Positions 1 through 44,192 of a stretch of 64,000 nucleotides of DNA are shown one piece after another (position 1 is the stretch's first letter; every line of letters begins with the position of its first letter). The notes under the pieces are model-generated. The model did not search any database and had not been told where the DNA came from. It was given only the letters and a program-made list of their open reading frames with translations. This DNA comes from Escherichia phage Lindwurm. The stretch lies in the sequence record NC_134264.1; one strand, given 5' to 3'. The translations under genes and the position numbers were made by a program.

Positions 1-187
1 CATCTAGTAAATCCAGACGCGTAATAGGAATCCACTTAATCTCTTTGGCAACAACACCACTATTCTTATACATAATAGGGTATTTACTAGTCATTGTCTC
101 TATGTGATAAGTGGTTTGCTTACTACAATAATCCCAAAGTTCATCATCGGGCTTGAAATAGGCTTTATTAGATATAACAACCTTCAT
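1..187 (-). CDS. hypothetical protein, partial (runs off window start)
   Basis: ATG at 187-185 on minus overlaps the TGA stop of the upstream gene (ATGA); open frame to position 1. Confidence 0.4.
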   Translation of the reverse strand, partial: MKVVISNKAYFKPDDELWDYCSKQTTYHIETMTSKYPIMYKNSGVVAKEIKWIPITRLDLLD

Positions 188-681
188 AATTTTATTCTAA
201 GTCTAGGAATTTCAGGCTCCTCTTGATGGACTTGGTAAATAACAGGGCTATTATTTACCAGAATATAGCTTATATAAGCTGGAACATAGGATAATACAAA
301 TGGATATGGAACTTTAGCTACATAGCATTGGTATTTTCCGTTATAAATTCTAGCTGAATGCAAAACTTTAGAGGTGACAACATCATAGAACGTAGTTTTC
401 TTCCAGTTAATAAGATTTCCATCAGAATCTATAAATTGGCTACGTTTTGACCCAACTAGTTGAGACAACATTGATATTCTACCTCTAATAGGATAGAGCT
501 TGTATGGTAATTCTTTCCGTTTCTCAAATAGAATAAGTCTACGTTGAGAAAATGTGCCAGGCAACTTCCTGTTATCTAGCACATATTTATTATATCTTGT
601 TGTAATTACGGAATAATCACCTTCTTGCTCAATTGATACAAACGCCCGTAAAGCATATATGGGCAATTTGAAATCAAGCAC
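184..681 (-). CDS. hypothetical protein
   Basis: 165-aa ORF in track; GTG start; abuts end of polymerase gene. Confidence 0.45.
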   Translation of the reverse strand: MLDFKLPIYALRAFVSIEQEGDYSVITTRYNKYVLDNRKLPGTFSQRRLILFEKRKELPYKLYPIRGRISMLSQLVGSKRSQFIDSDGNLINWKKTTFYDVVTSKVLHSARIYNGKYQCYVAKVPYPFVLSYVPAYISYILVNNSPVIYQVHQEEPEIPRLRIKL

Positions 682-3241
682 CGAGAATCCTTCTCACGTT
701 ATCCAAATCTTTACATACAGCAATAAACTTATCATCCTTGTATTTGCTATGATCTGGATGCTCTTTATCCATTGCAGCTAGTTTCTTATACTCGAACTCT
801 GCATCAAGTAATACACCCTTGACATAACGAGTATATTCATCATCATCAATACAAGCGATTGATGGGTGCTGTTTCTTCATCTTACCACAAGAATAGTCAC
901 GAGAACCTCCAGCTTCAGAATCTGAATCAATACCAATCGGGCAACCAGGAATACTGATACCACGGTCTTTCTGAATATTACGAATCAGGATTTCATTGTA
1001 TTGGTCGATCAAATCCTCACGAACAATAGCAACTACGGAGTCGTGAACCAGCATAACAATCTTCATCTCTTGTTCTAGGCCAAGAGAAATGATCTCATTA
1101 TCTGCATCTACAGCACCTAAAAGGAGACTATCAGAAGAAGCAGACTGAATGATTGCGTTAAATCCAGAGCGGATTTCTTCACCCTGAACACCACGGTCTT
1201 CGGAATGGATATTATGCAGACGACGTTTACGCCCAAAGTGGCTATAGATAAATCCATGATTCTTGATCTGGTCGTGACACTTATCAATCCAACGCTTAAG
1301 CTGCGGGAACTGACCGAAGTAAGTTTCAATGTACTCTTTAGCATCTGCAACAGTACACTCTACAAACGGTTCACCTGTCTTAGCAGCTTGTTCCAGAAGA
1401 GCTTCGTTAACAGAATGAGCTACTTTAGCTGGGCCAGAACCATACAAAATACCGAAGGTAATTGCCTTAGCAGCCTGGCGCAGGGCTGGGAATAATTTTT
1501 TAACATCACGAGGTTCGCATTGTAGCTTAAATACCATATGTGCGATGTTAGAGTGGAAGTCAGGGTATTTATCAGGTTCATTTCTCATGTTGATAAATAC
1601 CTGTTGCATATTTCTATCACCAGATAGAACAGCAGCATAATAAACTTCCGCAGTTGTTAAGTCCCATGCGATTACACGATACCCGGGAGGGGCTACTACA
1701 CAACCCTTGATAATAGATTCATCACGAGGTAACTGTTGCAGGTTCAGTTTACCAGAAGAACTCAGACGACCAGAAGTAGTCATATGTTCATGGAAGCCAG
1801 TACGAATGCAACCATCAGCATCAATGCTCAGAAGAATCTTCTCAACGTAAGTAGAGATCAGCTTAGTCAGCTTACGAATCTCTAGTAGGGTCTTAGCAAT
1901 TGGATGCTGCGTAGACAATTCGTTCAGAGCTTCTGCATCTGTAGAGTCTGCTCCAGTATCCGTCAATTTACCTGTTGGAGTTAAGCCAACATAATCAAAC
2001 AGAAGAACACGGAGTTGTTTAACAGAGTTTGGGTTAAACGCTTCGTTCTGATCTTTCTCTAGCTGAACGACTTCTGGGTAAGTATACAGCTTCTCACGGG
2101 CTTTATTCAGATTATGAGTTAACTGATACTGAGCTTCTTTCAAGCGATCAATAGAAATTGGTACACCACGATCCTCAACACGCTGGAGAAATACACAACC
2201 AGGCATTAGAACATCATAATACAGACTGCAAAGTTTTTCATTCTTCTCAATTTTTGGTAAGAAGAAGTTGTGCAAACGTATGGTTGCATCGGTATCTTTC
2301 GCAGCGTAAGGCCACATAATATCAAACGGAATTAAATCATAGGTGAAATCTTCTTTCTTGATTTTATGTGCTTTGCAGTAATCCTCTTTGAACTTATCTA
2401 GTTCGAAGTCATAGTCACCCATATCGGTATACTTCATTGCTAGAGATTTCAAGCCATGAGTACCACGACGTTCATCTAGAACATAATGCTGCAACATAGT
2501 ATCATGGAGCCTGCGTTCTTTATGTGCTTTATCAAAAGTAAGTCCCAGATGGTACTTATAAAAGTGCATATCAAACTTCAAGTTGTGAAAAACAATAGTG
2601 TGGTTTTCACTATCCAGAATTTTCTGGAGATAATATACTGCAACCTCTGTGAGACAATCAGAATCGATATATACACCCTGATACTCTTGGTGAGACATAG
2701 AAACACCAAGCAGATAACCATCTCGACAGTATAGTGCTGAGGTTTCGGAGTCGAATGCGACAGGTCCGATAACCATATTATACACCATCTTGATATATTC
2801 TTCTGCCTCCTCAGGGTCAGTAATAGGACGATAATCACCAGCTTTTGCAACCTTCTCACGACCATTGATAATATCGTGGATATTTTCTACTGTTGCATCG
2901 AAAACTGGTTTCATTTCAGGTTTAAAGTGTAACTGGGCTGGGCTGATACTCGCAATCCAGTTAGCATATCCATTATACTCTACACGTTTACCAGTATAGT
3001 CACCAATGCCTTTCTTACCTGCGAAATACAGGAAAGGTTCAGCACCTACTAGTATAACAAAATCATAATCATTCGGATCAAATGGGTTTTCTGGTGTTCC
3101 AATAGTAATGTGCTTTTTAAGCAAACGACCAGATAACTTCTCGTTACACATATGGAATACATCAACTTCCTCGCCGTATAGCTGGAAATGTTTATCGTAA
3201 CGAGTGTTGTTTAGGGCTTTATCAACTACTGCGATTTTCAA
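674..3241 (-). CDS. DNA polymerase, family A, with 3'-5' exonuclease domain
   Basis: 855-aa ORF; Pol A motif B RQAAKAITFGILYGSG, motif C VHDSVV, DTGADSTD motif, N-terminal exo region; length matches my recollection of T5 polymerase. Confidence 0.9.
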   Translation of the reverse strand: MKIAVVDKALNNTRYDKHFQLYGEEVDVFHMCNEKLSGRLLKKHITIGTPENPFDPNDYDFVILVGAEPFLYFAGKKGIGDYTGKRVEYNGYANWIASISPAQLHFKPEMKPVFDATVENIHDIINGREKVAKAGDYRPITDPEEAEEYIKMVYNMVIGPVAFDSETSALYCRDGYLLGVSMSHQEYQGVYIDSDCLTEVAVYYLQKILDSENHTIVFHNLKFDMHFYKYHLGLTFDKAHKERRLHDTMLQHYVLDERRGTHGLKSLAMKYTDMGDYDFELDKFKEDYCKAHKIKKEDFTYDLIPFDIMWPYAAKDTDATIRLHNFFLPKIEKNEKLCSLYYDVLMPGCVFLQRVEDRGVPISIDRLKEAQYQLTHNLNKAREKLYTYPEVVQLEKDQNEAFNPNSVKQLRVLLFDYVGLTPTGKLTDTGADSTDAEALNELSTQHPIAKTLLEIRKLTKLISTYVEKILLSIDADGCIRTGFHEHMTTSGRLSSSGKLNLQQLPRDESIIKGCVVAPPGYRVIAWDLTTAEVYYAAVLSGDRNMQQVFINMRNEPDKYPDFHSNIAHMVFKLQCEPRDVKKLFPALRQAAKAITFGILYGSGPAKVAHSVNEALLEQAAKTGEPFVECTVADAKEYIETYFGQFPQLKRWIDKCHDQIKNHGFIYSHFGRKRRLHNIHSEDRGVQGEEIRSGFNAIIQSASSDSLLLGAVDADNEIISLGLEQEMKIVMLVHDSVVAIVREDLIDQYNEILIRNIQKDRGISIPGCPIGIDSDSEAGGSRDYSCGKMKKQHPSIACIDDDEYTRYVKGVLLDAEFEYKKLAAMDKEHPDHSKYKDDKFIAVCKDLDNVRRILGA

Positions 3242-3334
3242 ATTTAATCTCCTCTTGGTAAGTAAGTATAACTTCAGTGTTTCTTCTCTAACTTACCAAT
3301 ATATTATATCAAAATATTGGGATAATAGCAAATA

Positions 3335-3664
3335 CTATTTATAGGTGTGAAGTAATTTACGCATTTCATTGCGATGCTTTTCTAGTACCCGAAATTCTTC
3401 ATCTATACGCAGAAAAGCATCTAGCGCTTTCATAGATTGCTCAGTATTTTCTACAACAGCCCAATCATATGTTAGGTATACCTCTTGACCTGTATCTTTT
3501 ACTTTAAAGTAAATATAAGATGCAGGTAATTTAGGATCACCAAATAAATGGAAATTCTTTCGTTTATTAAGGGACTCCAGTGTTGTAAACCGCTCTAGTT
3601 TAACCTCTTTGTGTGTTACACTATCATACACTGGAACATCCGCATAAATATATACATATTCCAT
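3335..3664 (-). CDS. hypothetical protein
   Basis: 109-aa ORF in operon context. Confidence 0.45.
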   Translation of the reverse strand: MEYVYIYADVPVYDSVTHKEVKLERFTTLESLNKRKNFHLFGDPKLPASYIYFKVKDTGQEVYLTYDWAVVENTEQSMKALDAFLRIDEEFRVLEKHRNEMRKLLHTYK

Positions 3665-3690
3665 AGTAGCTCCTCAGTTATTTAGGACTA

Positions 3691-4581
3691 TTATACCAAA
3701 TCTTTAAGCGATTCAGCAACTAAAATTTCAATACGTTTTGCTAACATATCAATTTCATCTTTGTTTAAATCACCCGGATCTTTGCCTTCGGGCAGAAGAA
3801 AGTTAGCAACTACAGGTGTTAAACGCGTTTTTGTACGAATTAACTTGGCCAATGCTTGTGCAGCTTTATTACCAGAAGCATCATTATCTAGTAAGATAAC
3901 AACAACTTTTACACCAGCAATAATATAAGGACTGAACTTATCTGCAATGTTATCCGAAGTAAACTGATGTGTACCAAAGCAGCAAGAAGCATAGTCTATA
4001 CCATTATCCTCTAGGTTCAGCATATCAAAGATACCTTCAACTAGAATAAGAACTGGAGTATTATATCGTACAGGGAAAATCGGTGGTGAAACTTGTTTTG
4101 GTTTTACTAAGTATTTAGGAGGGGCAGAACTGTTTATAGAACGACCCAAAAATAGGATATTGCGTCCAACAGCATCTGTGATTGGAAATACAATTCTGCC
4201 TTCCCAGTCTGCTTGGTGTTGGAAAGCAAAATATTTCTTCAAGGTCTTAGAACTTATACCTCGGAAATCACCTTCGAAAAGGTAAGCAGATTCAGGAATT
4301 GCAAGATTCGTTGATCCATTCCTAATCTCTGAAATCTTTTTGCGTACTTGCGATAGCCTTGGGGACTGTAGGTACTGAGTCTCATTAAAATAATGGTAAA
4401 TGCTCGGTATACCTTTACCGAAGCCACAACTCAAGCAGTGCATAATACCTGTTTCAGGATCAATACGCAAACTTGGGTGTTTATCGTCATGATCTGGATT
4501 GAGACAACAGATGAGGATGTCCCCACCTGTGTCTTTATATTCAATGCCTTTCAGATCAAGTAGTTCTGTTATTCTACTCAT
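3691..4581 (-). CDS. DNA primase (zinc-binding plus Toprim-like)
   Basis: N-terminal CxxH..HCxSCG zinc motif (CLNPDHDDKHP...HCLSCGFGKG); acidic Toprim-like LVEGIFD / LLDNDASG. Confidence 0.75.
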   Translation of the reverse strand: MSRITELLDLKGIEYKDTGGDILICCLNPDHDDKHPSLRIDPETGIMHCLSCGFGKGIPSIYHYFNETQYLQSPRLSQVRKKISEIRNGSTNLAIPESAYLFEGDFRGISSKTLKKYFAFQHQADWEGRIVFPITDAVGRNILFLGRSINSSAPPKYLVKPKQVSPPIFPVRYNTPVLILVEGIFDMLNLEDNGIDYASCCFGTHQFTSDNIADKFSPYIIAGVKVVVILLDNDASGNKAAQALAKLIRTKTRLTPVVANFLLPEGKDPGDLNKDEIDMLAKRIEILVAESLKDLV

Positions 4582-6101
4582 ATATCGCTGGCCTGTTCAC
4601 CTGTTGAATTTTCAGCTTTGTCTTTCTTAGCACGTTTAGGTTGAGCCGGCTTATCCTTCTCAATAGGGATAACGAACTCAGCTTCCATTTGAGATATATC
4701 TTCCATTGCTAGGTTGGTAGTGTTATCCATTCGCAGAGTTTCCCAGTTCATTTTAGGCATAAACTTCACGCTATCAGAAGAACGAGTCTTAACGAAGTCA
4801 AACATAATAGCACCTTGACCATTATCAGCTTTTGCAGCGTTAAGATTAGCAGCCATGTCTGCGGAATCAAGAATCCCCTTTGACATACGTGTTCTACCAT
4901 CTTGATCGATCTGGTAAGGAGCTACACCAGCCACGTTATGTTTCTGGCAGATAGATTTGAAAGACGAGCTAACAACCATCTGTTCTTTCCAGTCATACAT
5001 ATCAATGGTTTTAGAGTCTGGAAGTCTGGTTTGGTTAATATAGTCCAGTAAAGCTACTGTAACTTTATCTCCATATCTAGCAACTAATTTATTTAATTCT
5101 ACGTCAACTGTTGTAATAGACAGCTCAGGGTCATAAACAATAATCATAGGAGTATGTAGCTCATACCCTTCTATTAGCTTACTTTCCATATCGTAGAAAT
5201 CACTCATCTTAGCCATTGTGTACTGTTTAACGAAGTTATCGAAAAGCTCTTCACCACCATTAAACATTCTAGCTCTAGTTCTGGCTAATCTCAACAGAGC
5301 TGCACCTTCTAGAGTATTATTACGCATTGCTAGTGCTGATACACCAGCTAACATGGCTAGATTACGCCTAAATACTTCATGTTCTTTCATCTCAATTGAG
5401 AAGTATGGAGCAATATCTCCATTCAAATATTGCTGAACCTGTATGTTTGAACAGATAATGGATTTACCAGTACCACGCCAACCACCAAGCAGTAACGTTT
5501 CTGTGCGAGCTAAACCAATTTGAGCGTCGAACTCATTACAAATACCAAGAGCGATTAAGTTCAGTTTGGTATCTTCTTCTCTCTGGAAAATACGCATGTT
5601 ATCTGCGTTGAATACTTTTCCAGTATTCGTTACTTTCTCTTCTAATTTTAAGTGAAGGGAGGCAACTCGGTTGAGAATTTCTCCCTGATCCAGCATTGTT
5701 AAATCTTGAAGCACGTCTGTTTCTAGAAGCTTCAGGAACAAATCCTGCGTATATTCGGCCTCTAGGACTTCAAGTGCCTGTTCCATGCTCACTTCTGGAA
5801 TTTGAGTGTTAGCTAAGACGACTAGAGCTTGAGAAAGGCGGGCGTTCCTATTAGCTTCAAGCATAAGTGCGTCAATGGACGGCATTGTGTTATATTTTTT
5901 ATAATAATTCTGGACGGCTTGGTAAATTGAGGAGAAAGCGTCATTAAAATGATCTTTATGCAGTTTTGAGAATGTTTCCAATGCTATTTGCTTCTGTTCG
6001 GAAGCTAGAAGCATCTTCAACACTACAGCTTGCACGTTAAACAAGGTCATTCTCCTTTGCACGCTTTCGTGCCTTCTAAATGCAAAAAGGGGAAGGAGCA
6101 T
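4578..6101 (-). CDS. replicative DNA helicase, DnaB/RecA-fold
   Basis: Walker A GGWRGTGKS; 507 aa; ATG at 6101 preceded by GGGGAGG RBS; overlaps primase stop. Confidence 0.7.
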   Translation of the reverse strand: MLLPLFAFRRHESVQRRMTLFNVQAVVLKMLLASEQKQIALETFSKLHKDHFNDAFSSIYQAVQNYYKKYNTMPSIDALMLEANRNARLSQALVVLANTQIPEVSMEQALEVLEAEYTQDLFLKLLETDVLQDLTMLDQGEILNRVASLHLKLEEKVTNTGKVFNADNMRIFQREEDTKLNLIALGICNEFDAQIGLARTETLLLGGWRGTGKSIICSNIQVQQYLNGDIAPYFSIEMKEHEVFRRNLAMLAGVSALAMRNNTLEGAALLRLARTRARMFNGGEELFDNFVKQYTMAKMSDFYDMESKLIEGYELHTPMIIVYDPELSITTVDVELNKLVARYGDKVTVALLDYINQTRLPDSKTIDMYDWKEQMVVSSSFKSICQKHNVAGVAPYQIDQDGRTRMSKGILDSADMAANLNAAKADNGQGAIMFDFVKTRSSDSVKFMPKMNWETLRMDNTTNLAMEDISQMEAEFVIPIEKDKPAQPKRAKKDKAENSTGEQASDI

Positions 6102-6132
6102 AGCCCCCTCCCCTTAGGTTTAATTTACCAGA

Positions 6133-6900
6133 TTATTCAGCAGCCGCAGCTTTTGCATCCAGTTTAGCACGCTTAGCGGCACCATCATAGTCCTTAGCAA
6201 CCAGACCACGACGAGACAGCATAGATTTAACACCCCGCTCAGACTTACCAGTTTTCTCAGCAATCTCAGCAACAGTCATGTTAACCAGATCCAGACCTTC
6301 TAACAGATCTTCACGAGTTTTAGCACTTGAAGTTTCCTGTACCGGCATAGCAGCAATACGACCTTCACGAAGCAGACTCAGAGCTTTACCACGGATCTGC
6401 TTAATATTGCGACCGAAGTGAGCAGCGATAGCTTCAATAGTAGCACCAGCAACAACCTGATTAACAAAATCAGTTTCTTCATCCGGAGTGAAGGAACGAA
6501 CAGCAGCAGCTTTTTCAGTTGGCTTAACAGAAGCAGTCATTTCCAGACTCAGAATCTTACCTTGTACCTGCTTAGCACCGAACTGACCACCAGCTACAGC
6601 AGCAGCGATTTCAGCATAGGTATACTGACCAGCATGAGCGTTCAGGAAATCAACCAGTTCAGCTTCCTGCTCAGGAGTCCACGGAGATTTCTGCACTTCG
6701 TTAGCTTTTTGTACTTCAAAACCTTCTTTACGCAGTTTAGAGCCAACAGAGCGAGCAGTAACATCTTTGCCGGTTTCCGCAGCCAGTTCAGCAGCGATAG
6801 CAGCTACTTGTTCTTGAGAGATTACAGCAACACCCAGAGCAGTGGCTTTTGCTTTCAGAGACTCGGTTACACCTTCTACGTTCCAGTTCAGTTTAGACAT
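6133..6900 (-). CDS. hypothetical Ala-rich protein with three internal helix-rich repeats
   Basis: 255-aa ORF; repeats of type TGKxxxxRSVGSKLRKEG; resembles 9626..10036 product. Confidence 0.5.
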   Translation of the reverse strand: MSKLNWNVEGVTESLKAKATALGVAVISQEQVAAIAAELAAETGKDVTARSVGSKLRKEGFEVQKANEVQKSPWTPEQEAELVDFLNAHAGQYTYAEIAAAVAGGQFGAKQVQGKILSLEMTASVKPTEKAAAVRSFTPDEETDFVNQVVAGATIEAIAAHFGRNIKQIRGKALSLLREGRIAAMPVQETSSAKTREDLLEGLDLVNMTVAEIAEKTGKSERGVKSMLSRRGLVAKDYDGAAKRAKLDAKAAAAE

Positions 6901-7675
6901 TATTATTTTTCTCCAATAGTTCTTTAATCGACAGGATTTCTATCCCATTCGTTTCGGCTTTCTTATAAGATGAGGAAGAACGCTTCGATTCATCCTCACA
7001 GATTAGGTATTTGACGTCTTTAGTAACGGATTTCTTAACCGTATATCCTAGACCTTCTAAATAGTTTGTTGCATCCGTTCGATTTGCAAAATCTTGCAAA
7101 GATCCGGTAATACATACCGCGATTCCATTTGGCTGGGCAATTAATTCATCTGTAATGATGACGTCAGCTTTAGTGCCCTTAATACCGGTTGAAAATTTCC
7201 ACGGTAGTTCGATAACATCCTTGCCTTGTGGGGAATTTAGCCAGGCTTTATAATTTTCTCCAGCCTTGCCGTCAGCCTTCACATCGTGGAAGCTAGTGCA
7301 ATTTTGGGATAATTTCTTTGCTGCAACCTCTCCAATTAGAGAGATTCCTAAAGAACCGAGAACTGAACCAAAGTCAATGTCTCCGCGAACTTTAGTATTT
7401 AATTCGCTAATTAGCTTAGCGGCAACCTTGCTACCCACGGCTCTAACCAAATCTTCTTCGGTTAGGTAAAATAGTTCTGAAATCTTCGTCAGCTCCAGCT
7501 TCTCAATAGTTTTTGGGCCAAAGCCCTTTAACTTCATTTTTGTACAGAAGTTCTCAATTAACTTACTTGATTGCGCTGGACAGTTGGACTTATTCCGACA
7601 GAATAATTGTCCGTTGACAAGATCTAGCTTAGAACCACAAGAGGGACATTGTGTTGGAATTTCGATTTTCATCAA
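6893..7675 (-). CDS. NAD-dependent DNA ligase, C-terminal half (Zn finger, HhH, BRCT-like)
   Basis: CPSCGSKLDLVNGQLFCRNKSNC zinc finger at N-terminus; follows ligase adenylation/OB ORF. Confidence 0.7.
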   Translation of the reverse strand: MMKIEIPTQCPSCGSKLDLVNGQLFCRNKSNCPAQSSKLIENFCTKMKLKGFGPKTIEKLELTKISELFYLTEEDLVRAVGSKVAAKLISELNTKVRGDIDFGSVLGSLGISLIGEVAAKKLSQNCTSFHDVKADGKAGENYKAWLNSPQGKDVIELPWKFSTGIKGTKADVIITDELIAQPNGIAVCITGSLQDFANRTDATNYLEGLGYTVKKSVTKDVKYLICEDESKRSSSSYKKAETNGIEILSIKELLEKNNNV

Positions 7676-7702
7676 ATTTCTTCCTTATCAATTTATATAA
7701 AT

Positions 7703-7731
7703 ATTATAGCAAGTATTTAAGCATTTAGCAA
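7703..7731 (-). promoter_or_regulatory. early-type sigma70 promoter (TTGCTA-17-TATAAT) inside the ligase split
   Basis: minus-strand TTGCTA and TATAAT with 17-nt spacer, followed by ATAAATTGATAAGGAAG box. Confidence 0.5.
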
Positions 7732-7874
7732 CTACAATTTTAACTAACTTTGCTTACCCTCGCCATAACTTTCTATCCCTCAACTGAATGATAATAGTAT
7801 ATACCTAAGCGGCGAAAATGTCAATAACCACTTTATAATTCCGATATGGTAGATGGGTAGCAAAGGGTTATGTA

Positions 7875-8846
7875 TTAATCGTATACTCGCTCTACTATGC
7901 ACGGGATTACACCACCAGCACGAATTACTCGAATCTGGCAACCGATCTCTAGATCGAGAGAGTTAATATAATCAACGTTATTAAGGGTCGCTTTAACAAT
8001 TGTAGCATCATCAATAATTACCGGCTCGAAATAACCAACTGGAGTTACTTTACCAGAAGCCCCTACCTGCCACTCAACTTTAGTAAGAGTTGTAATCTCG
8101 CCTTCTTCATCCTCTTTAATAGCGAATGCTCCACGAGGGAATTTATTAGTCCAGCCTTCACGGAAGAATTTGTTGTTGTCATTAATACGAACAACTTTAC
8201 CGTCCGTCGGAATCCATTTAAAGAAGGAACGCACATTAACAACTGTTAAGAAGTCCTCATTCTCTAGCCAAAGCATATCTTTTAAATATGCTTCTGTAAT
8301 ACCTACAGATTCAGCAGAACACTGGATACCGTATGCAACGAAGATTAGACCACCTTCTCCGATACGTTGTACGAAATCATCACTATCTTTGAGGTTAATA
8401 GCACCAGAGGCAAAGTTACGTTTATTTTCTACTTCTTTTGTAATTAGAACTTCACCAGTGATTTGAGTAGGTACTTTTTGGGAAATCTTTTTAGGAATAT
8501 TCAGCAATCTTACGTTGCTTGTGACATCATTCCCTAGAATACCATTACCACGAGTTAGTGCTTGAACAAATTCTCCATTAATATATAACAGAGAAATCGC
8601 ACAACCATCTAACTTATCAGTTTCTACTTGACCTAATGGGTTAAACGGAGGTTTATCCCCACGATTATAATAAACTTTCTGTAAAGAATACATACGATAC
8701 AGATGTGGGATATCTCCTTTAGGCCCAATCTCTTCCTCTATTGGGAATCTTTTAATAAGACGATCATATTCTTCATCAGAGATTAAAGACATTCCCTGGT
8801 AATACGCTTCTTGACAACGTTTAATAAAGTCTTTTACATTAGTCAT
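7875..8846 (-). CDS. NAD-dependent DNA ligase, N-terminal half (adenylation domain plus OB fold)
   Basis: KxDG adenylation motif in KLDGCAISLLY; C-terminus VIRAGGVIPCIVERV resembles OB-fold end of LigA. Confidence 0.75.
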   Translation of the reverse strand: MTNVKDFIKRCQEAYYQGMSLISDEEYDRLIKRFPIEEEIGPKGDIPHLYRMYSLQKVYYNRGDKPPFNPLGQVETDKLDGCAISLLYINGEFVQALTRGNGILGNDVTSNVRLLNIPKKISQKVPTQITGEVLITKEVENKRNFASGAINLKDSDDFVQRIGEGGLIFVAYGIQCSAESVGITEAYLKDMLWLENEDFLTVVNVRSFFKWIPTDGKVVRINDNNKFFREGWTNKFPRGAFAIKEDEEGEITTLTKVEWQVGASGKVTPVGYFEPVIIDDATIVKATLNNVDYINSLDLEIGCQIRVIRAGGVIPCIVERVYD

Positions 8847-33719: not shown

Positions 33720-34490
33720 GCCGATTACGCTGAGTGCAGAATCCCAACCGGAGCGCATTGAATAGAGTCGGTGGGTTAGTTGTAAAACTAGTACACAGGG
33801 GGCGGCAATCCCGGTTAGTGGCTAGAACGTGTAAAATGAGGCGTCTGAAACCTCTCCCCTAAACTCTTCTCTAATTTATAAATAGTGGGGTGTGGAAATC
33901 ACTTATGTAGTAACACTGCCGTACTAGTATAATTGGTATTATCAAGCCGTAACTGGTGGAAGATGTAGGTTCGAATCCTACGGTCGGTAAGAACTGGATA
34001 ACTGGTGCTTTTAATGTAAAAGCTTCCGAGGTTAGTTGCGCACTGCCTAAACCACGCGGTAGTTGGTTCCAGACTAACCAACCAGTCTGCTGAATAGTTT
34101 TATTACGATTTAACTATGTCCAGGCTAAAGAAGAACTTTAGAAGGTATTCTAGGATAGTGAAGTTCTTTCTCCATATCGGAGTAGTTTTTCAAGCTATCC
34201 CCAAAGTGGGAAATGCTGACATGAGAGATGTCACTAATGGTGCACAATAGCACAGGTAATTCGCGATAACTCCTGTTGAGTAGCAGCAAAAGGCGGGAAG
34301 TCATGACCCCAAGCCTAACCGAGTCCTCAATATACCGCAGGACATAACCACTAAGTCACCCTGACTTAAACTGGAAAATAATAGACGTTACCGTATTTTG
34401 TCTTGAAATACTTAATGAGTGAGACTTATGACTCTCCCGGTATCGTCTGTATTTTTAAGAGTTTTTACAAGAGTTCTTAAAAATACTTAA
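33720..34490 (+). ncRNA. structured non-coding leader/RNA region of unknown function
   Basis: about 770 nt without credible ORF, downstream of a promoter; orphan T-arm GTAGG-TTCGAAT-CCTAC at 33965-33981; mutually exclusive hairpins at 34050-34090. Confidence 0.35.
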
Positions 34491-40956: not shown

Positions 40957-41033
40957 GCGACCGGGGCTGGCTTGGTAATGGTACTCCCCTGTCACGGGAG
41001 GGAATGTGGGTTCAAATCCCATCGGTCGCGCCA
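40957..41033 (+). tRNA. tRNA-Asp (anticodon GUC)
   Basis: acceptor GCGACCG/CGGTCGC, anticodon stem CTCCC/GGGAG loop CTGTCAC, T-arm GTGGG-TTCAAAT-CCCAT, CCA. Confidence 0.75.
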
Positions 41034-41407: not shown

Positions 41408-41527
41408 CAAAATTTCAGTGCAGAACACGGAGCTAGCAATTCGGAAGTGCTGACTCATGATAAGCTGCCTATGTACTTGCGAAGCGGTCGTGTCCAAGAC
41501 TCGGACTCTTGCACTGAAAACAATCAA

Positions 41528-41650
41528 ACATTCTAGCGTGGTTGATGGGGAAACCAGCTTGGCGAGGGCAGAAGCTCGTTCGATTCGAGTGAAAGAATGG
41601 TTCTCGTAAGTCCGCACAAGTGATAACAGGTTCGAGTCCTGTCTAGAATG
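41528..41650 (+). ncRNA. tRNA-like element with large internal insertion (non-canonical)
   Basis: 7-bp acceptor ATTCTAG(41529-35)/CTAGAAT(41642-48), D-arm GGTT-GATGGGGA-AACC, two T-arm-like hairpins (GCTCG-TTCGATT-CGAGT and ACAGG-TTCGAGT-CCTGT), about 121 nt, no CCA. Confidence 0.4.
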
Positions 41651-41798
41651 ACACTATAAAGTTTACTTATTATGTAGGTTCCGGTAGACCGGCGGGTCTA
41701 TTCTGGCATTTAAGAGAGGTCTCGCAAGCCTCTTTGTCAGCAGTGGGGTTGGTAGCCTCCAGGTGGCCTACACAATAAGTAAATTTATTAAAAATTCA

Positions 41799-41827
41799 TT
41801 TGCTATTCTGCTTAATTCTCTGTATAA
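41799..41827 (+). promoter_or_regulatory. early-type promoter
   Basis: TTGCTA-17-TATAAT. Confidence 0.6.
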
Positions 41828-41860
41828 TATATCTTATAAAGTGAAGAGAAGGAAAGCTAA

Positions 41861-42067: not shown

Positions 42068-42143
42068 CAGTGCGTAGCGCAGTTGGTAGCGTGGGAGCCT
42101 TGGATGCTTCGGGTCGCAGGTTCGAGTCCTGCCGCACTGACCA
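42068..42143 (+). tRNA. tRNA-Pro (anticodon UGG)
   Basis: acceptor CAGTGCG/CGCACTG, D-arm GCGC-AGTTGGTA-GCGT, anticodon loop CTTGGAT, T-arm GCAGG-TTCGAGT-CCTGC, CCA. Confidence 0.75.
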
Positions 42144-43826: not shown

Positions 43827-44192
43827 AATCTTGAAGTATGCCGGAATCGGTAGACGGGGCTGCCTAAAAGGTTTATAGAGAACATCCACTCTCTACAACA
43901 TACCTCATAAAGCGGCTGAGATAAATGGTCTATCTCGTGAAGGTTCAAGTCCTTCTGCTTCTTGATACACCTATGGCTCAAAGTGTAACGGTGCTATTTG
44001 ATACTCTTAGTAAGACTTTCCCGACATGCGTTCGGGAGTAAGCTGCTAAGGCTAGAGTAGAAGAGTTTCGGAGAGCCGCCACAATTGAAAATTCGTACTC
44101 GTCTTGAGCTGCGTGCAATAGGAGATAACTTGATTAGTATTCTAGAACATGCTAATTGAGGAAGGTTTCGCTAACCCTGCGAGTTTTCAATT
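43827..44192 (+). ncRNA. structured non-coding region with orphan T-arm and 14-bp inverted repeat
   Basis: T-arm-like GAAGG-TTCAAGT-CCTTC at 43939-43955 with no matching acceptor; stem-loop CCCGA-CATGCGT-TCGGG; IR GCCACAATTGAAAA (44078-44091) / TTTTCAATTGTGGC (44184-44197). Confidence 0.35.

What the first reader, a model, noticed from the sequence alone, without database searches (positions are those of the whole stretch)
41528..41650. tRNA-like element with canonical acceptor and D-arm but a roughly 45-nt internal insertion and two T-arm hairpins
ATTCTAG (41529-41535) pairs perfectly with CTAGAAT (41642-41648). A textbook D-arm (GGTT-GATGGGGA-AACC) follows, and a perfect T-arm (ACAGG-TTCGAGT-CCTGT) precedes the 3' acceptor strand. 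About 45 extra nucleotides, including a second T-arm-like hairpin (GCTCG-TTCGATT-CGAGT), lie in between, and no CCA is encoded. This could be an intron-containing or permuted tRNA, a decayed tRNA duplication, or a tRNA-derived regulatory RNA.
Basis: seen in the sequence. Interest (0 to 1): 0.6.

Follow-up and report, generated by a model that had tools for sequence, protein, structure and literature searches.

The report
Phage T5 "RNA2": tRNA-shaped non-decoding RNA
This is the already-annotated "RNA2" of T5-like phages: an RNA folded like a tRNA, except that a conserved 55-base structured arm replaces the anticodon loop, so it almost certainly cannot decode; its function is still unknown, but the same arm turns up inside the tRNA gene clusters of unrelated phages.

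Summary
Window 41530-41650 is the ortholog of T5 misc_RNA "rna2", annotated in GenBank as "tRNA-like stable RNA with unknown functions". ARAGORN in default mode and Rfam call nothing there.

Covariation across 29 distinct homologs supports a class-I tRNA cloverleaf:
- 7-bp acceptor stem, D arm, 5-bp anticodon-like stem (100% paired, all 5 pairs compensated), 4-nt variable loop and T arm.
- The 7-nt anticodon loop is replaced by 55 nt. This arm holds a second genuine T-arm hairpin, two short covarying helices and invariant strands (GAAAGAAUGG, UAA, UCC).

The single-sequence MFE fold is wrong in the centre.

The tRNA-body stems drift (41% identity) while the insert core is conserved (86%). The core also occurs in Klebsiella and Serratia Demerecviridae, in T4-like Acinetobacter phages and in metagenomic tRNA arrays. 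RNA2 lacks an encoded CCA, whereas 20 of the window's 21 tRNA genes have one.

Best reading: a non-decoding RNA on a natural tRNA scaffold. The tRNA machinery excises and stabilises it, and the insert is the functional module. The partner and function are unknown.

The decayed-duplicate, permuted-tRNA, tmRNA-like and intron readings are not supported. The entity is already known; the family breadth and the structure are new detail.

The parts
41529..41653 (+). Extent equivalent to the GenBank misc_RNA 'rna2' of phage T5 (125 nt: C-1, the tRNA-like body, then ACA)
   Evidence: Alignment to AY692264 32962-33086 and AY543070 32959-33083. The covariance-model hit spans 41530-41650 at 102 bits.
41530..41536 (+). 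Acceptor stem, 5' strand (ATTCTAG)
   Evidence: Pairs with 41643-41649. All 7 pairs show compensatory changes and 94.7% of cells pair. Examples: GGGTACT/GGTATCC, TACGGGG/TCCCGTA, AGGTTAG/CTAACCT, GACTTTG/CAAAGTC.
41539..41556 (+). D arm (TGGTT-GATGGGGA-AACCA) with the D-loop GG
   Evidence: Stem covaries within Demerecviridae (TGGTG/CACCA, TGGCT/AGCCA, TGCCG/CGGCA). Overall 73% paired, because the T4-like copies have only a reduced TTGGTGGAAG stretch here.
41557..41561 (+). Anticodon-like (AC) stem, 5' strand (GCTTG)
   Evidence: Pairs with CAAGT at 41617-41621. Paired in 100% of 29 distinct sequences, with all 5 pairs compensated. The MFE partner TAAGT pairs in only 67%.
41562..41616 (+). 55-nt structured arm that replaces the 7-nt anticodon loop (the conserved 'insert')
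   Evidence: Insert core has 86% mean pairwise identity across 17 lineages, against 41% for the tRNA-body stems. Invariant columns include GG, G-TTCGATT-C, AATGG, TAA and CC.
41566..41569 (+). Helix Py, 5' strand (GGGC)
   Evidence: Pairs: G41566-C41615, G41567-C41613, G41568-C41612, C41569-G41610, with U41611 and G41614 bulged. 94.8% paired. Two pairs covary: GC 24 / AU 5, and CG 14 / UA 9.
41571..41572 (+). Helix Px core, 5' strand (GA)
   Evidence: G41571-C41605 (GC 27, AU 1, UA 1) and A41572-U41604 (AU 19, UA 6, CG 2, GU 1). It extends to 4-5 bp in the Klebsiella, L017 and L299 copies. L052 has G-C at both pairs (AGGA/TTCCCG).
41574..41590 (+). T' hairpin: a second, internal T-arm (GCTCG-TTCGATT-CGAGT)
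   Evidence: 97.2% paired, with 4 of 5 pairs compensated. The closing G-C and the loop TTCGATT are invariant in the 29-sequence alignment. Two further members have TTCAATT and TTCGATC.
41591..41600 (+). Conserved single strand J2 (GAAAGAATGG); AATGG is invariant
   Evidence: Invariant columns of alignment A3. No pairing partner is supported. Docking of its GG onto the T' loop is an inference.
41604..41605 (+). Helix Px core, 3' strand (TC)
   Evidence: See the Px 5' strand.
41607..41609 (+). Invariant 3-nt bulge TAA between Px and Py
   Evidence: Invariant in all 29 sequences.
41610..41616 (+). Helix Py 3' strand and pseudo-anticodon stretch (G-T-CC-G-C-A)
   Evidence: Pairs with GGGC. ARAGORN -i reads TCCGCA as U33-CCG-C37-A38.
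41617..41621 (+). AC stem, 3' strand (CAAGT)
41622..41625 (+). Variable loop (GATA), class-I length
   Evidence: 2-5 nt in all members.
41626..41642 (+). T arm (ACAGG-TTCGAGT-CCTGT)
   Evidence: 97.9% paired, with 4 of 5 pairs compensated. The Rfam tRNA model aligns here.
41643..41650 (+). Acceptor stem 3' strand (CTAGAAT) plus discriminator G; no CCA follows

Best explanation
The element is the ortholog of phage T5 'RNA2', a non-decoding RNA built on a tRNA scaffold.

Shown:
- It has a complete class-I tRNA body: a 7-bp acceptor stem, a D arm with GG, a 5-bp anticodon-like stem, a 4-nt variable loop and a canonical T arm.
- The 7-nt anticodon loop is replaced by a 55-nt irregular arm. From the stem outward this arm has a 4x1 internal loop, a 4-bp helix (Py), an invariant UAA bulge, a 2-5-bp helix (Px), an invariant purine-rich strand ending in AAUGG, and a distal hairpin that is itself a perfect T-arm (closing G-C, loop UUCGAUU).
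- The tRNA body evolves by compensatory change, whereas the insert is conserved in sequence across unrelated phages.
- The gene always sits in a tRNA array, with tRNA-like spacing to its neighbours.

Inferred:
- It is co-transcribed with neighbouring tRNAs and small ORFs.
- It is cut out by RNase P and the tRNA 3'-end enzymes, and protected from decay because it looks like a tRNA. This is the principle behind synthetic 'tRNA scaffolds'.
- It does not read codons and probably is not charged.
- The conserved arm is the working part. It most likely folds into a compact T-loop-based module, with the AAUGG guanines docking on the T' loop as D-loop G18/G19 dock on the T loop. That module binds a conserved partner in trans.

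Most speculative step: because the RNA occurs only in phages and elements with large tRNA arrays, the partner is probably part of tRNA metabolism or of tRNA-directed host defence, making RNA2 a decoy, sponge or cofactor.
For: - Identity with T5 and BF23 rna2.
- Structure: covariation counts, an independent RNAalifold consensus, and a covariance model in which ordinary tRNAs align end-to-end at 15-29 bits while RNA2 scores 102 bits. All four T5-versus-window substitutions keep their pairs.
- Insert as the functional part: 86% identity in the insert core against 41% in the body stems, for example window versus L304 29/31 against 10/34. The phage-133 copy matches T5-like inserts at 84-87% although the bodies are unrelated.
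- Spread: about 480 Demerecviridae records, 14 Acinetobacter phage records, and metagenome and viral contigs L017, L052, L081, L210, L211, L280, L299, L304.
- tRNA-array context everywhere. No promoter or terminator lies between the upstream tRNAs and RNA2; the next promoter is at 41800-41828. Spacers to flanking tRNAs are 3-10 nt. In phage 133 the element fills the whole gap between tRNA-Gly and tRNA-Cys.
- Non-decoding: no 7-nt loop; no call by ARAGORN in default mode or by Rfam; no encoded CCA, against 20 of 21 tRNAs with one; acceptor sequences too diverse for one synthetase identity.
- E. coli processes and stabilises tRNA bodies whose anticodon arm is replaced by foreign RNA (PMC3753655).
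- T5 RNA1 repeats the design with a different insert.
Against: - No expression, end-mapping or binding data for RNA2 were available to me. The T5 record says 'stable RNA', but the BF23 record says only 'tRNA-like RNA', so stability may itself be an inference by the annotators.
- No conserved protein gene accompanies it, so there is no genomic clue to a partner.
- The T4-like Acinetobacter copies lack a convincing acceptor stem and D arm. The full tRNA scaffold is therefore not universal; those copies may rely on flanking tRNAs for excision.
- The tertiary 'second elbow' and the decoy role are untested. The invariant bases show no variation, so covariation cannot test them.
- My alignment was anchored by hand, with the AC and acceptor partners chosen by best complementarity within a small window. 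That inflates the percentage paired, though it does not create the diversity of compensated pairs.
Confidence: 0.6

Rival explanations
1. A cis-acting processing or punctuation element. The tRNA-like fold serves only to recruit RNase P and 3' processing enzymes, so that the polycistronic transcript is cut between the upstream ORF and the downstream RNAs. The excised RNA has no function in trans.
For: It lies between an ORF (ending about 41406) and RNAIV, inside a unit with no internal promoter or terminator. tRNA-like punctuation is an established principle in mitochondrial transcripts and in T4 tRNA precursors (own knowledge).
Against: A punctuation signal needs only the acceptor/T-arm half. 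Here the strongly conserved part is the insert (86% against 41%). The insert is kept in genomes where the flanks are ordinary tRNAs that already provide cleavage sites (phage 133, Klebsiella phages, BF23).
Confidence: 0.12
2. An intron-containing tRNA gene. A 45-50-nt intervening sequence between positions 32 and 33 is removed, giving a tRNA-Arg(CCG) (Trp-CCA in some lineages). The loop / 4-bp helix / 3-nt bulge layout would act as a relaxed bulge-helix-bulge substrate.
For: ARAGORN -i calls L210, L299 (Arg-CCG) and L211 (Trp-CCA) at the default threshold. At a relaxed threshold it also calls the window element (intron 41563-41610, leaving the loop G-U-CCG-C-A) and four more members. The pseudo-anticodon is paired with the insert, as anticodon-intron helices are in eukaryotic and archaeal pre-tRNAs (plus own knowledge).
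Against: - 'Position 37' is C or U, whereas functional tRNAs have a purine there. Position 32 is variable.
- The 'anticodon' changes identity between lineages.
- The J1 bases at the would-be 5' splice site are polymorphic among close T5-likes (GCGA/GCTA).
- The central helix carries two single-base bulges, and the 5' 'bulge' is a 4x1 internal loop, so this is not a canonical BHB.
- 48 nt is far too short for a group I intron, the only tRNA intron type known in bacteria and phages. I know of no splicing endonuclease in T5, and the literature search found no phage BHB introns.
- No CCA is encoded, unlike 20 of 21 real tRNAs here.
- An intron would not be expected to be better conserved than its exons.
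Confidence: 0.06
3. A charged tRNA mimic that acts on the ribosome (tmRNA-like or another translation factor mimic), with the insert serving as an mRNA-like or ribosome-binding part.
For: The acceptor/T-arm minihelix is intact. An AUG and a UAA are invariant in the insert. Three lineages (Kamaji, L210, L081) have an alanine-type acceptor, G3.U70 with A73. CCA follows the discriminator in UTK0010, Klebsiella K7 and L017.
Against: - The AUG-UAA spacing varies (the stretch between AAUGG and UAA is 4, 5, 6 or 8 nt), so no reading frame is conserved.
- ARAGORN -m finds no tmRNA.
- The acceptor sequences and discriminators are too diverse for a single identity set. The window and T5 have A1-U72 and U3-A70 or U3.G70.
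- A true D arm is present, unlike in tmRNA. No pseudoknots were found.
Confidence: 0.05
4. A decaying remnant of a tandem tRNA duplication or fusion, with no present function.
For: Two T-arm hairpins in one 121-nt stretch. An origin by fusion of tRNA pieces is plausible. RNA1's variable arm resembles part of the RNA2 insert.
Against: Conserved in about 480 records and across phage families. Every helix is maintained by compensatory change. The unpaired insert strands are invariant. A pseudogene would show the opposite pattern.
Confidence: 0.02

Closest known systems
Phage T5 / BF23 'RNA2' (GenBank misc_RNA rna2 in AY543070, AY692264, NC_042564)
   Same: Orthologous: 4 substitutions in 121 nt. 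Same position between tRNA-Asp plus an ORF on one side and RNAIV / promoter P13a on the other. Same strand relative to the tRNA genes.
   Different: Nothing of substance. The annotation gives no structure or function beyond 'tRNA-like (stable) RNA with unknown functions'.
Phage T5 'RNA1' (tRNA-like RNA upstream of RNAI/RNAIII/tRNA-His; window about 43833-43975)
   Same: Same design: a tRNA body whose anticodon loop is replaced by a structured insert with an invariant loop and covarying stems. Same tRNA cluster.
   Different: Class-II-like body with a long variable arm. A different insert (loop ACAUCCAC, no internal T-arm). The RNA2 covariance model gave no RNA1 hit at E<=10.
Synthetic 'tRNA scaffold' for recombinant RNA expression in E. 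coli (Ponchon and Dardel; PMC3753655)
   Same: Acceptor stem, D arm and T arm are kept, and the anticodon stem-loop is replaced by a hairpin-closed cargo RNA. The host tRNA machinery processes and stabilises the chimera.
   Different: It is man-made. The natural element keeps the 5-bp anticodon stem and carries one specific, conserved cargo.
Bacterial Y RNAs of the YrlA type (tRNA-mimicking partners of Ro60/Rsr; PMC4201824)
   Same: A tRNA-like module (T arm, D arm, acceptor-like stem) fused to a second functional module. Some are substrates of RNase P, the CCA-adding enzyme and tRNA modification enzymes. Also found in phages.
   Different: In YrlA the RNA ends lie in the Ro-binding stem, which takes the place of the anticodon arm, and the acceptor-like stem is closed by a loop. 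YrlA genes lie next to rsr. No Rfam match here even at E<=10, and no rsr context.
Phage T4 stable RNAs species 1 and 2 (rnaC, rnaD)
   Same: Small stable RNAs of unknown function encoded at the end of a phage tRNA cluster. rnaC has a T-arm-like 3' part.
   Different: No shared insert core. rnaC scores 25 bits with the RNA2 model, the same as ordinary tRNAs.
Archaeal/eukaryal intron-containing pre-tRNA (bulge-helix-bulge substrates)
   Same: Extra sequence inside the anticodon loop that pairs with the anticodon-side bases, giving a loop / 4-bp helix / 3-nt bulge arrangement.
   Different: Non-canonical position (32/33). Irregular central helix. Pyrimidine at position 37. No known endonuclease in these hosts or phages. 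The 'intron' is the most conserved part.

Membership tests
T5 RNA2 (annotated misc_RNA of Tequintavirus) | Sequence orthology to AY543070 32959-33083 | tested here: met
   Aligned without gaps: 4 substitutions across the 121-nt tRNA-like body, all preserving pairs. The covariance model scores the window at 102 bits and T5 at 100 bits.
T5 RNA2 (annotated misc_RNA of Tequintavirus) | Synteny: tRNA-Asp, ORF, RNA2, RNAIV, promoter P13a, ORF, tRNA-Pro | tested here: met
   Window order: tRNA-Asp at 40957, ORF, RNA2 at 41530, RNAIV at 41672, promoter-like site at 41800, ORF, tRNA-Pro at 42068.
Canonical tRNA (Rfam RF00005 / ARAGORN) | Acceptor stem, D arm and T arm with conserved D-loop GG and T-loop UUCRA | tested here: met
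Canonical tRNA (Rfam RF00005 / ARAGORN) | 7-nt anticodon loop (Y32-U33-NNN-R37-N38) closed by the 5-bp stem | tested here: not met
   The stem closes a 55-nt loop. The forced 7-nt reading has G32 and C37.
Canonical tRNA (Rfam RF00005 / ARAGORN) | Detected above the curated threshold | tested here: not met
   ARAGORN gives no call in default mode. Rfam's tRNA model reaches 18 bits on the 3' half only, against a gathering score of 29.
Canonical tRNA (Rfam RF00005 / ARAGORN) | 3' CCA, encoded as in the phage's other tRNA genes | tested here: not met
   ACAC follows the discriminator. 20 of 21 tRNAs in the window encode CCA. Post-transcriptional addition is not testable here.
Intron-containing tRNA | Removing the intron restores a canonical anticodon loop with one conserved anticodon | tested here: not met
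   The loop would be N-U-CC(G/A)-(C/U)-A. The anticodon is CCG or CCA depending on lineage, with a pyrimidine at position 37.
Intron-containing tRNA | A recognisable splicing mechanism (a group I core of 200 nt or more, or a canonical 3-4-3 BHB with an endonuclease) | tested here: not met
   The insert is 48-55 nt. The central helix has two bulges, and the 5' 'bulge' is a 4x1 loop. Whether an endonuclease gene is present was not tested.
tmRNA | tRNA-like domain plus a tag-peptide ORF and pseudoknots; alanine identity | tested here: not met
   ARAGORN tmRNA search is negative. No conserved frame between AUG and UAA. G3.U70 is present in only 3 lineages.
YrlA / bacterial Y RNA | Match to the Rfam model; ends in a Ro-binding stem; adjacent rsr gene | tested here: not met
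   No Rfam hit at E<=10. The ends are in the acceptor stem. The context is a tRNA array.
T4 rnaC / rnaD | Sequence and structure homology | tested here: not met
   rnaC scores 25 bits, the same as ordinary tRNAs. No insert core by eye or by model.
tRNA-scaffolded stable RNA (works-like class; not a curated family) | tRNA body kept by compensatory change, with cargo conserved in sequence in place of the anticodon loop | tested here: met
tRNA-scaffolded stable RNA (works-like class; not a curated family) | Excision by RNase P and 3' processing, and accumulation as a stable RNA | not testable with these tools
   Rests only on the GenBank note 'stable RNA' and the analogy with PMC3753655.

The most novel reading that the evidence does not exclude
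RNA2 is the founding member of a widespread, uncurated class of phage RNAs carried on natural tRNA scaffolds. T5 RNA1 would be a second member with a different cargo. The conserved T-loop-containing cargo would bind a universally conserved host component. One possibility is that it forms a second tRNA-like elbow, or an elbow-docking platform, that titrates a tRNA-directed defence nuclease, a modification or processing enzyme, or another tRNA. That would make it an RNA-only counter-defence or tRNA-homeostasis factor travelling with phage tRNA arrays.
Probability: 0.3. Interest if true: 0.75.

Novelty: already known. Interest (0 to 1): 0.45.

Why it matters
T5 and T4 have carried "stable RNAs of unknown function" in their tRNA clusters since the 1970s-80s, and none has been explained.

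This analysis gives RNA2 a covariation-backed structure. It also shows that the conserved, presumably functional part is the 55-nt arm, not the tRNA body. That arm crosses phage families (Demerecviridae, T4-like Acinetobacter phages, unclassified contigs, very large tRNA arrays).

The old question becomes testable. There are specific invariant bases to mutate, a defined RNA to pull down, and a clear prediction that it is a non-decoding passenger of the tRNA-processing pathway.

Phage tRNA arrays are now known to counter tRNA-targeting defences such as PARIS and retron-type systems. An accessory RNA that always rides in those arrays is therefore a reasonable candidate for a role in the same conflict.

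For genome annotation, the element is missed by tRNA finders and by Rfam, and is sometimes overlapped by spurious 'hypothetical protein' calls.

Tried and rejected
- **Single-sequence MFE fold.** Its central helices (GCUUG/UAAGU, CGAGGGC/GUUCUCG, CGC/GUG) pair in only 67-83% of cells, with almost no compensation. Rejected in favour of the AC stem, Py and Px.
- **My first register for Py (GGGC/GUCC, contiguous).** Replaced by the bulged register after I saw that column 42 covaries with column 94.
- **Px as a 4-5-bp helix in all members.** Only the two central pairs are general. A purine strand against a pyrimidine strand pairs in several registers, so longer versions are lineage-specific.
- **Homology with T4 rnaC/rnaD.** None.
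- **Rfam**, at gathering and at E<=10, on the window, a 1-kb region and the element alone. Only a sub-threshold tRNA half-match.
- **A mini-ORF between the invariant AUG and UAA.** The frame is not conserved.
- **A conserved neighbouring protein gene** across lineages (all-against-all BLASTP of ORFs within 5 kb). None in three or more lineages; several loci were short.
- **Pattern scans.** The scan with GGTTCGATTCC...AATGG returned mostly ordinary T arms. The genome and metagenome scans were mostly chance matches and needed an architecture filter. Loci L234-L413 were screened by that filter only, not by the covariance model.
- **Literature searches** for T5 RNA2, 'tRNA-like stable RNA', phage BHB introns and T5 transcriptomes. 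Nothing on this RNA; the original 1980s papers are not in the library.
- **A single aminoacylation identity.** The acceptor stems and discriminators are too diverse.
Full report
**What is there**

The window is a T5-like phage (Demerecviridae); the 1.1 kb around the finding is 96-98% identical to many Salmonella and Escherichia T5-like phages. It contains the phage's tRNA block. ARAGORN and Rfam each tRNA genes (20 shared, one unique to each) between about 33.9 and 46.5 kb, and neither calls anything at 41528-41650, even with permissive Rfam filters.

- Acceptor strands: 41530-41536 and 41643-41649.
- D arm: 41539-41556.
- Internal T-arm-like hairpin: 41574-41590.
- T arm: 41626-41642.
- Discriminator G41650, followed by ACAC and not CCA.

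**It is already annotated**

Aligning the window with the T5 st0 and T5 reference records shows that the element is the ortholog of misc_RNA "rna2". It corresponds to window 41529-41653. The BF23 tRNA-region record carries the same feature as "tRNA-like RNA with unknown functions".

The downstream structured stretch at 41672-41774 is T5 RNAIV. I found no paper in the searchable library that discusses RNA2. The original 1980s literature is not held there.

**Structure**

The single-sequence fold is only marginally better than shuffles (z = -1.46) and puts the centre together wrongly. I collected diverged homologs from several sources:
- GenBank phages: Epseptimavirus, Serratia phage Kamaji, Klebsiella Sugarlandvirus-like phages and an Acinetobacter phage.
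- Pattern scans of viral, metagenome and genome collections, followed by an architecture filter.
- A covariance-model sweep of part of the fetched loci.

A segment-anchored alignment of 29 distinct sequences gave these results:
- **Acceptor stem:** 94.7% paired, all 7 pairs compensated.
- **AC-like stem** (41557-61 with 41617-21): 100% paired, all 5 pairs compensated, with 14 different stem sequences.
- **Internal T' hairpin:** 97.2% paired, 4 of 5 pairs compensated, invariant loop TTCGATT.
- **T arm:** 97.9% paired.

Sliding the 3' partners by 1-3 columns drops pairing from 89.9% to 48% or less. No shuffle out of 500 reaches the observed values. RNAalifold on the same alignment recovers these four helices on its own. 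The MFE alternative for the centre pairs in only 67-83% of cells, with almost no compensation.

Inside the 55-nt loop, two short helices are supported:
- **Py:** G41566-C41615, G41567-C41613, G41568-C41612 and C41569-G41610, with two bulged bases. The two outer pairs covary (GC/AU and CG/UA).
- **Px:** G41571-C41605 and A41572-U41604. The second pair appears as A-U, U-A, C-G and G-U in the alignment; L052 adds G-C.

The rest of the insert is invariant or nearly so: GG, G-UUCGAUU-C, AAUGG, UAA, CC and the final A.

Caveat: I chose the AC and acceptor partners by best complementarity within a few positions. That favours pairing, but it cannot create the variety of compensated pairs.

**What kind of thing it is**

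The body is a true tRNA body. With the RNA2 covariance model, every ordinary tRNA of the window, of T5 and of T4 aligns end-to-end at 15-29 bits, while RNA2 scores 100-102 bits and is unique in the window.

The body evolves freely, and the insert does not. Across 17 lineages, mean identity is 41% in the acceptor, AC and T stems and 86% in the insert core. Window versus L304, for example, is 10/34 against 29/31.

The same insert is found in several places:
- T4-like Acinetobacter phages (phage 133, ZZ1 and others; 14 Acinetobacter phage records), where it matches T5-like inserts at 84-87%.
- A 46-kb viral contig that encodes ACCA at the 3' end (L017).
- Several metagenome contigs with unrelated, textbook tRNA bodies (L052, L280, L299, L304).
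- Very large tRNA arrays, such as L211 with 47 tRNAs in 8.3 kb.

In every case it sits in a tRNA array, 3-10 nt from neighbouring tRNAs. In phage 133 it fills the whole gap between two tRNAs. In the T4-like copies the D arm is reduced and the acceptor pairing is poor, so there the flanking tRNAs probably supply the processing sites.

**Not a decoding tRNA**

Four observations argue against decoding:
- There is no 7-nt anticodon loop.
- 20 of the window's 21 tRNA genes encode CCA, and RNA2 does not.
- The acceptor stems and discriminators differ too much between lineages for one synthetase identity.
- ARAGORN finds no tmRNA, and the invariant AUG and UAA are not in a conserved frame.

ARAGORN in intron mode can read the element as tRNA-Arg(CCG) with a 48-nt intron after position 32. 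It does so at the default threshold for three relatives, and at a relaxed threshold for the window. I take this as a hint about origin rather than about function, for five reasons. The putative position 37 is a pyrimidine. The "anticodon" is CCG or CCA depending on lineage. Those bases are paired with the insert, and that pairing is maintained by covariation. The insert is far too small for a group I intron and is not a canonical bulge-helix-bulge. No phage BHB introns turned up in the literature.

**Mechanism proposed**

*Shown:* the architecture, the covariation, the conservation pattern and the genomic context.

*Inferred:*
- RNA2 is transcribed with the upstream tRNAs and ORFs. No promoter or terminator lies in between, and the next promoter-like site (41800-41828) corresponds to T5 P13a.
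- It is excised by RNase P and the tRNA 3'-end pathway.
- It is stable because it looks like a tRNA. Synthetic tRNA scaffolds exploit this in E. coli: the acceptor stem, D arm and T arm are kept, and the anticodon stem-loop is replaced by cargo (PMC3753655).
- The conserved arm is the cargo. Its distal hairpin has every hallmark of a T arm, and the invariant AAUGG strand next to it could supply the two guanines that dock on a T loop in tRNA, giving a second elbow-like knob at the far end of a long, roughly coaxial arm.

What it binds is unknown. No protein gene travels with it. Its restriction to genomes with large tRNA arrays points to tRNA metabolism or to tRNA-directed defence, where T5 tRNAs are already known to matter.

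T5 RNA1 has the same design with a different cargo and also shows covariation. The scaffold strategy therefore appears to be used at least twice in these phages.

**Verdict**

The finding is real and well above chance, but the entity is already known and annotated (T5 RNA2), so novelty is low. This analysis adds a tested secondary structure, a correction of the naive fold, evidence that the insert rather than the tRNA body is under sequence constraint, the spread of the family beyond T5-like phages, and concrete experiments.

Interest is moderate. It would be high only if the cargo proves to have a defined role such as counter-defence.

Noticed in passing
window 41414-41520: An unannotated 107-nt element between the upstream ORF and RNA2, closed by a 10-bp stem (TTTCAGTGCA/TGCACTGAAA). 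It is 100% identical between T5 and this window, although the neighbourhood differs by about 4%. Fold z = -1.9. In Epseptimaviruses a tRNA-Lys occupies this slot. It contains a CUCAUGA stretch that looks like a CAU anticodon loop, so it may be another tRNA-derived RNA.
   Followed up: partly
window 41672-41774: Ortholog of T5 RNAIV ('stable RNA with unknown functions'). Very strongly structured (z = -5.5, no shuffle as stable). It shows compensatory changes between T5 and the window: CCGGTAGACCGG versus CCGATAGATCGG, and AGAGG..CCTCT versus AGAAG..CTTCT.
   Followed up: partly
window about 43833-43975: Ortholog of T5 RNA1: a class-II-like tRNA body whose anticodon loop is replaced by a roughly 47-nt insert. 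The insert hairpin has an invariant loop (ACAUCCAC) and covarying stems in four diverged phages. Some pipelines annotate it as tRNA-Ser. Its variable arm (CUGAGAUAAAUGGUCUAUCUCGUGAAG) resembles the Px/J2 part of the RNA2 insert, suggesting a common origin.
   Followed up: partly
window 33918-33989: The weakest Rfam tRNA hit (29.9 bits, just above threshold) and the only one of 21 without an encoded CCA. It lies next to tRNA-Arg in the region equivalent to T5 'RNAX', a roughly 720-nt 'stable RNA with unknown functions'.
   Followed up: no
L210 808-926, L081 863-981 (minus strand), L005 (Serratia phage Kamaji) about 320-440: These RNA2-family members have an alanine-type acceptor end (G1-C72, G2-C71, G3.U70, discriminator A73), unlike the T5-type copies.
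   Followed up: no
L211 (contig Ga0308158_10000004, 1.46 Mb) 1-8283; L210 (RCUK01000002.1, 882 kb): An RNA2-family member sits inside an array of 47 tRNA genes in 8.3 kb on a 1.46-Mb metagenome contig, and another on an 882-kb contig. The family may also live in cellular or giant-virus tRNA arrays, not only in phages.
   Followed up: no
L013 5451-5523, L174 6751-6823, L394 7053-7127: ARAGORN calls tRNAs with a CUA (amber-reading, labelled 'Pyl') anticodon in the tRNA arrays of T4-like Acinetobacter-type contigs that also carry the RNA2-type element.
   Followed up: no
window 41529-41653 and homologous loci in GenBank records: Several deposited genomes annotate 'hypothetical protein' CDSs across the RNA2 or RNA1 loci (for example hits H46, H54, H72 and H102). 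These are probably spurious ORF calls over structured RNA genes.
   Followed up: no
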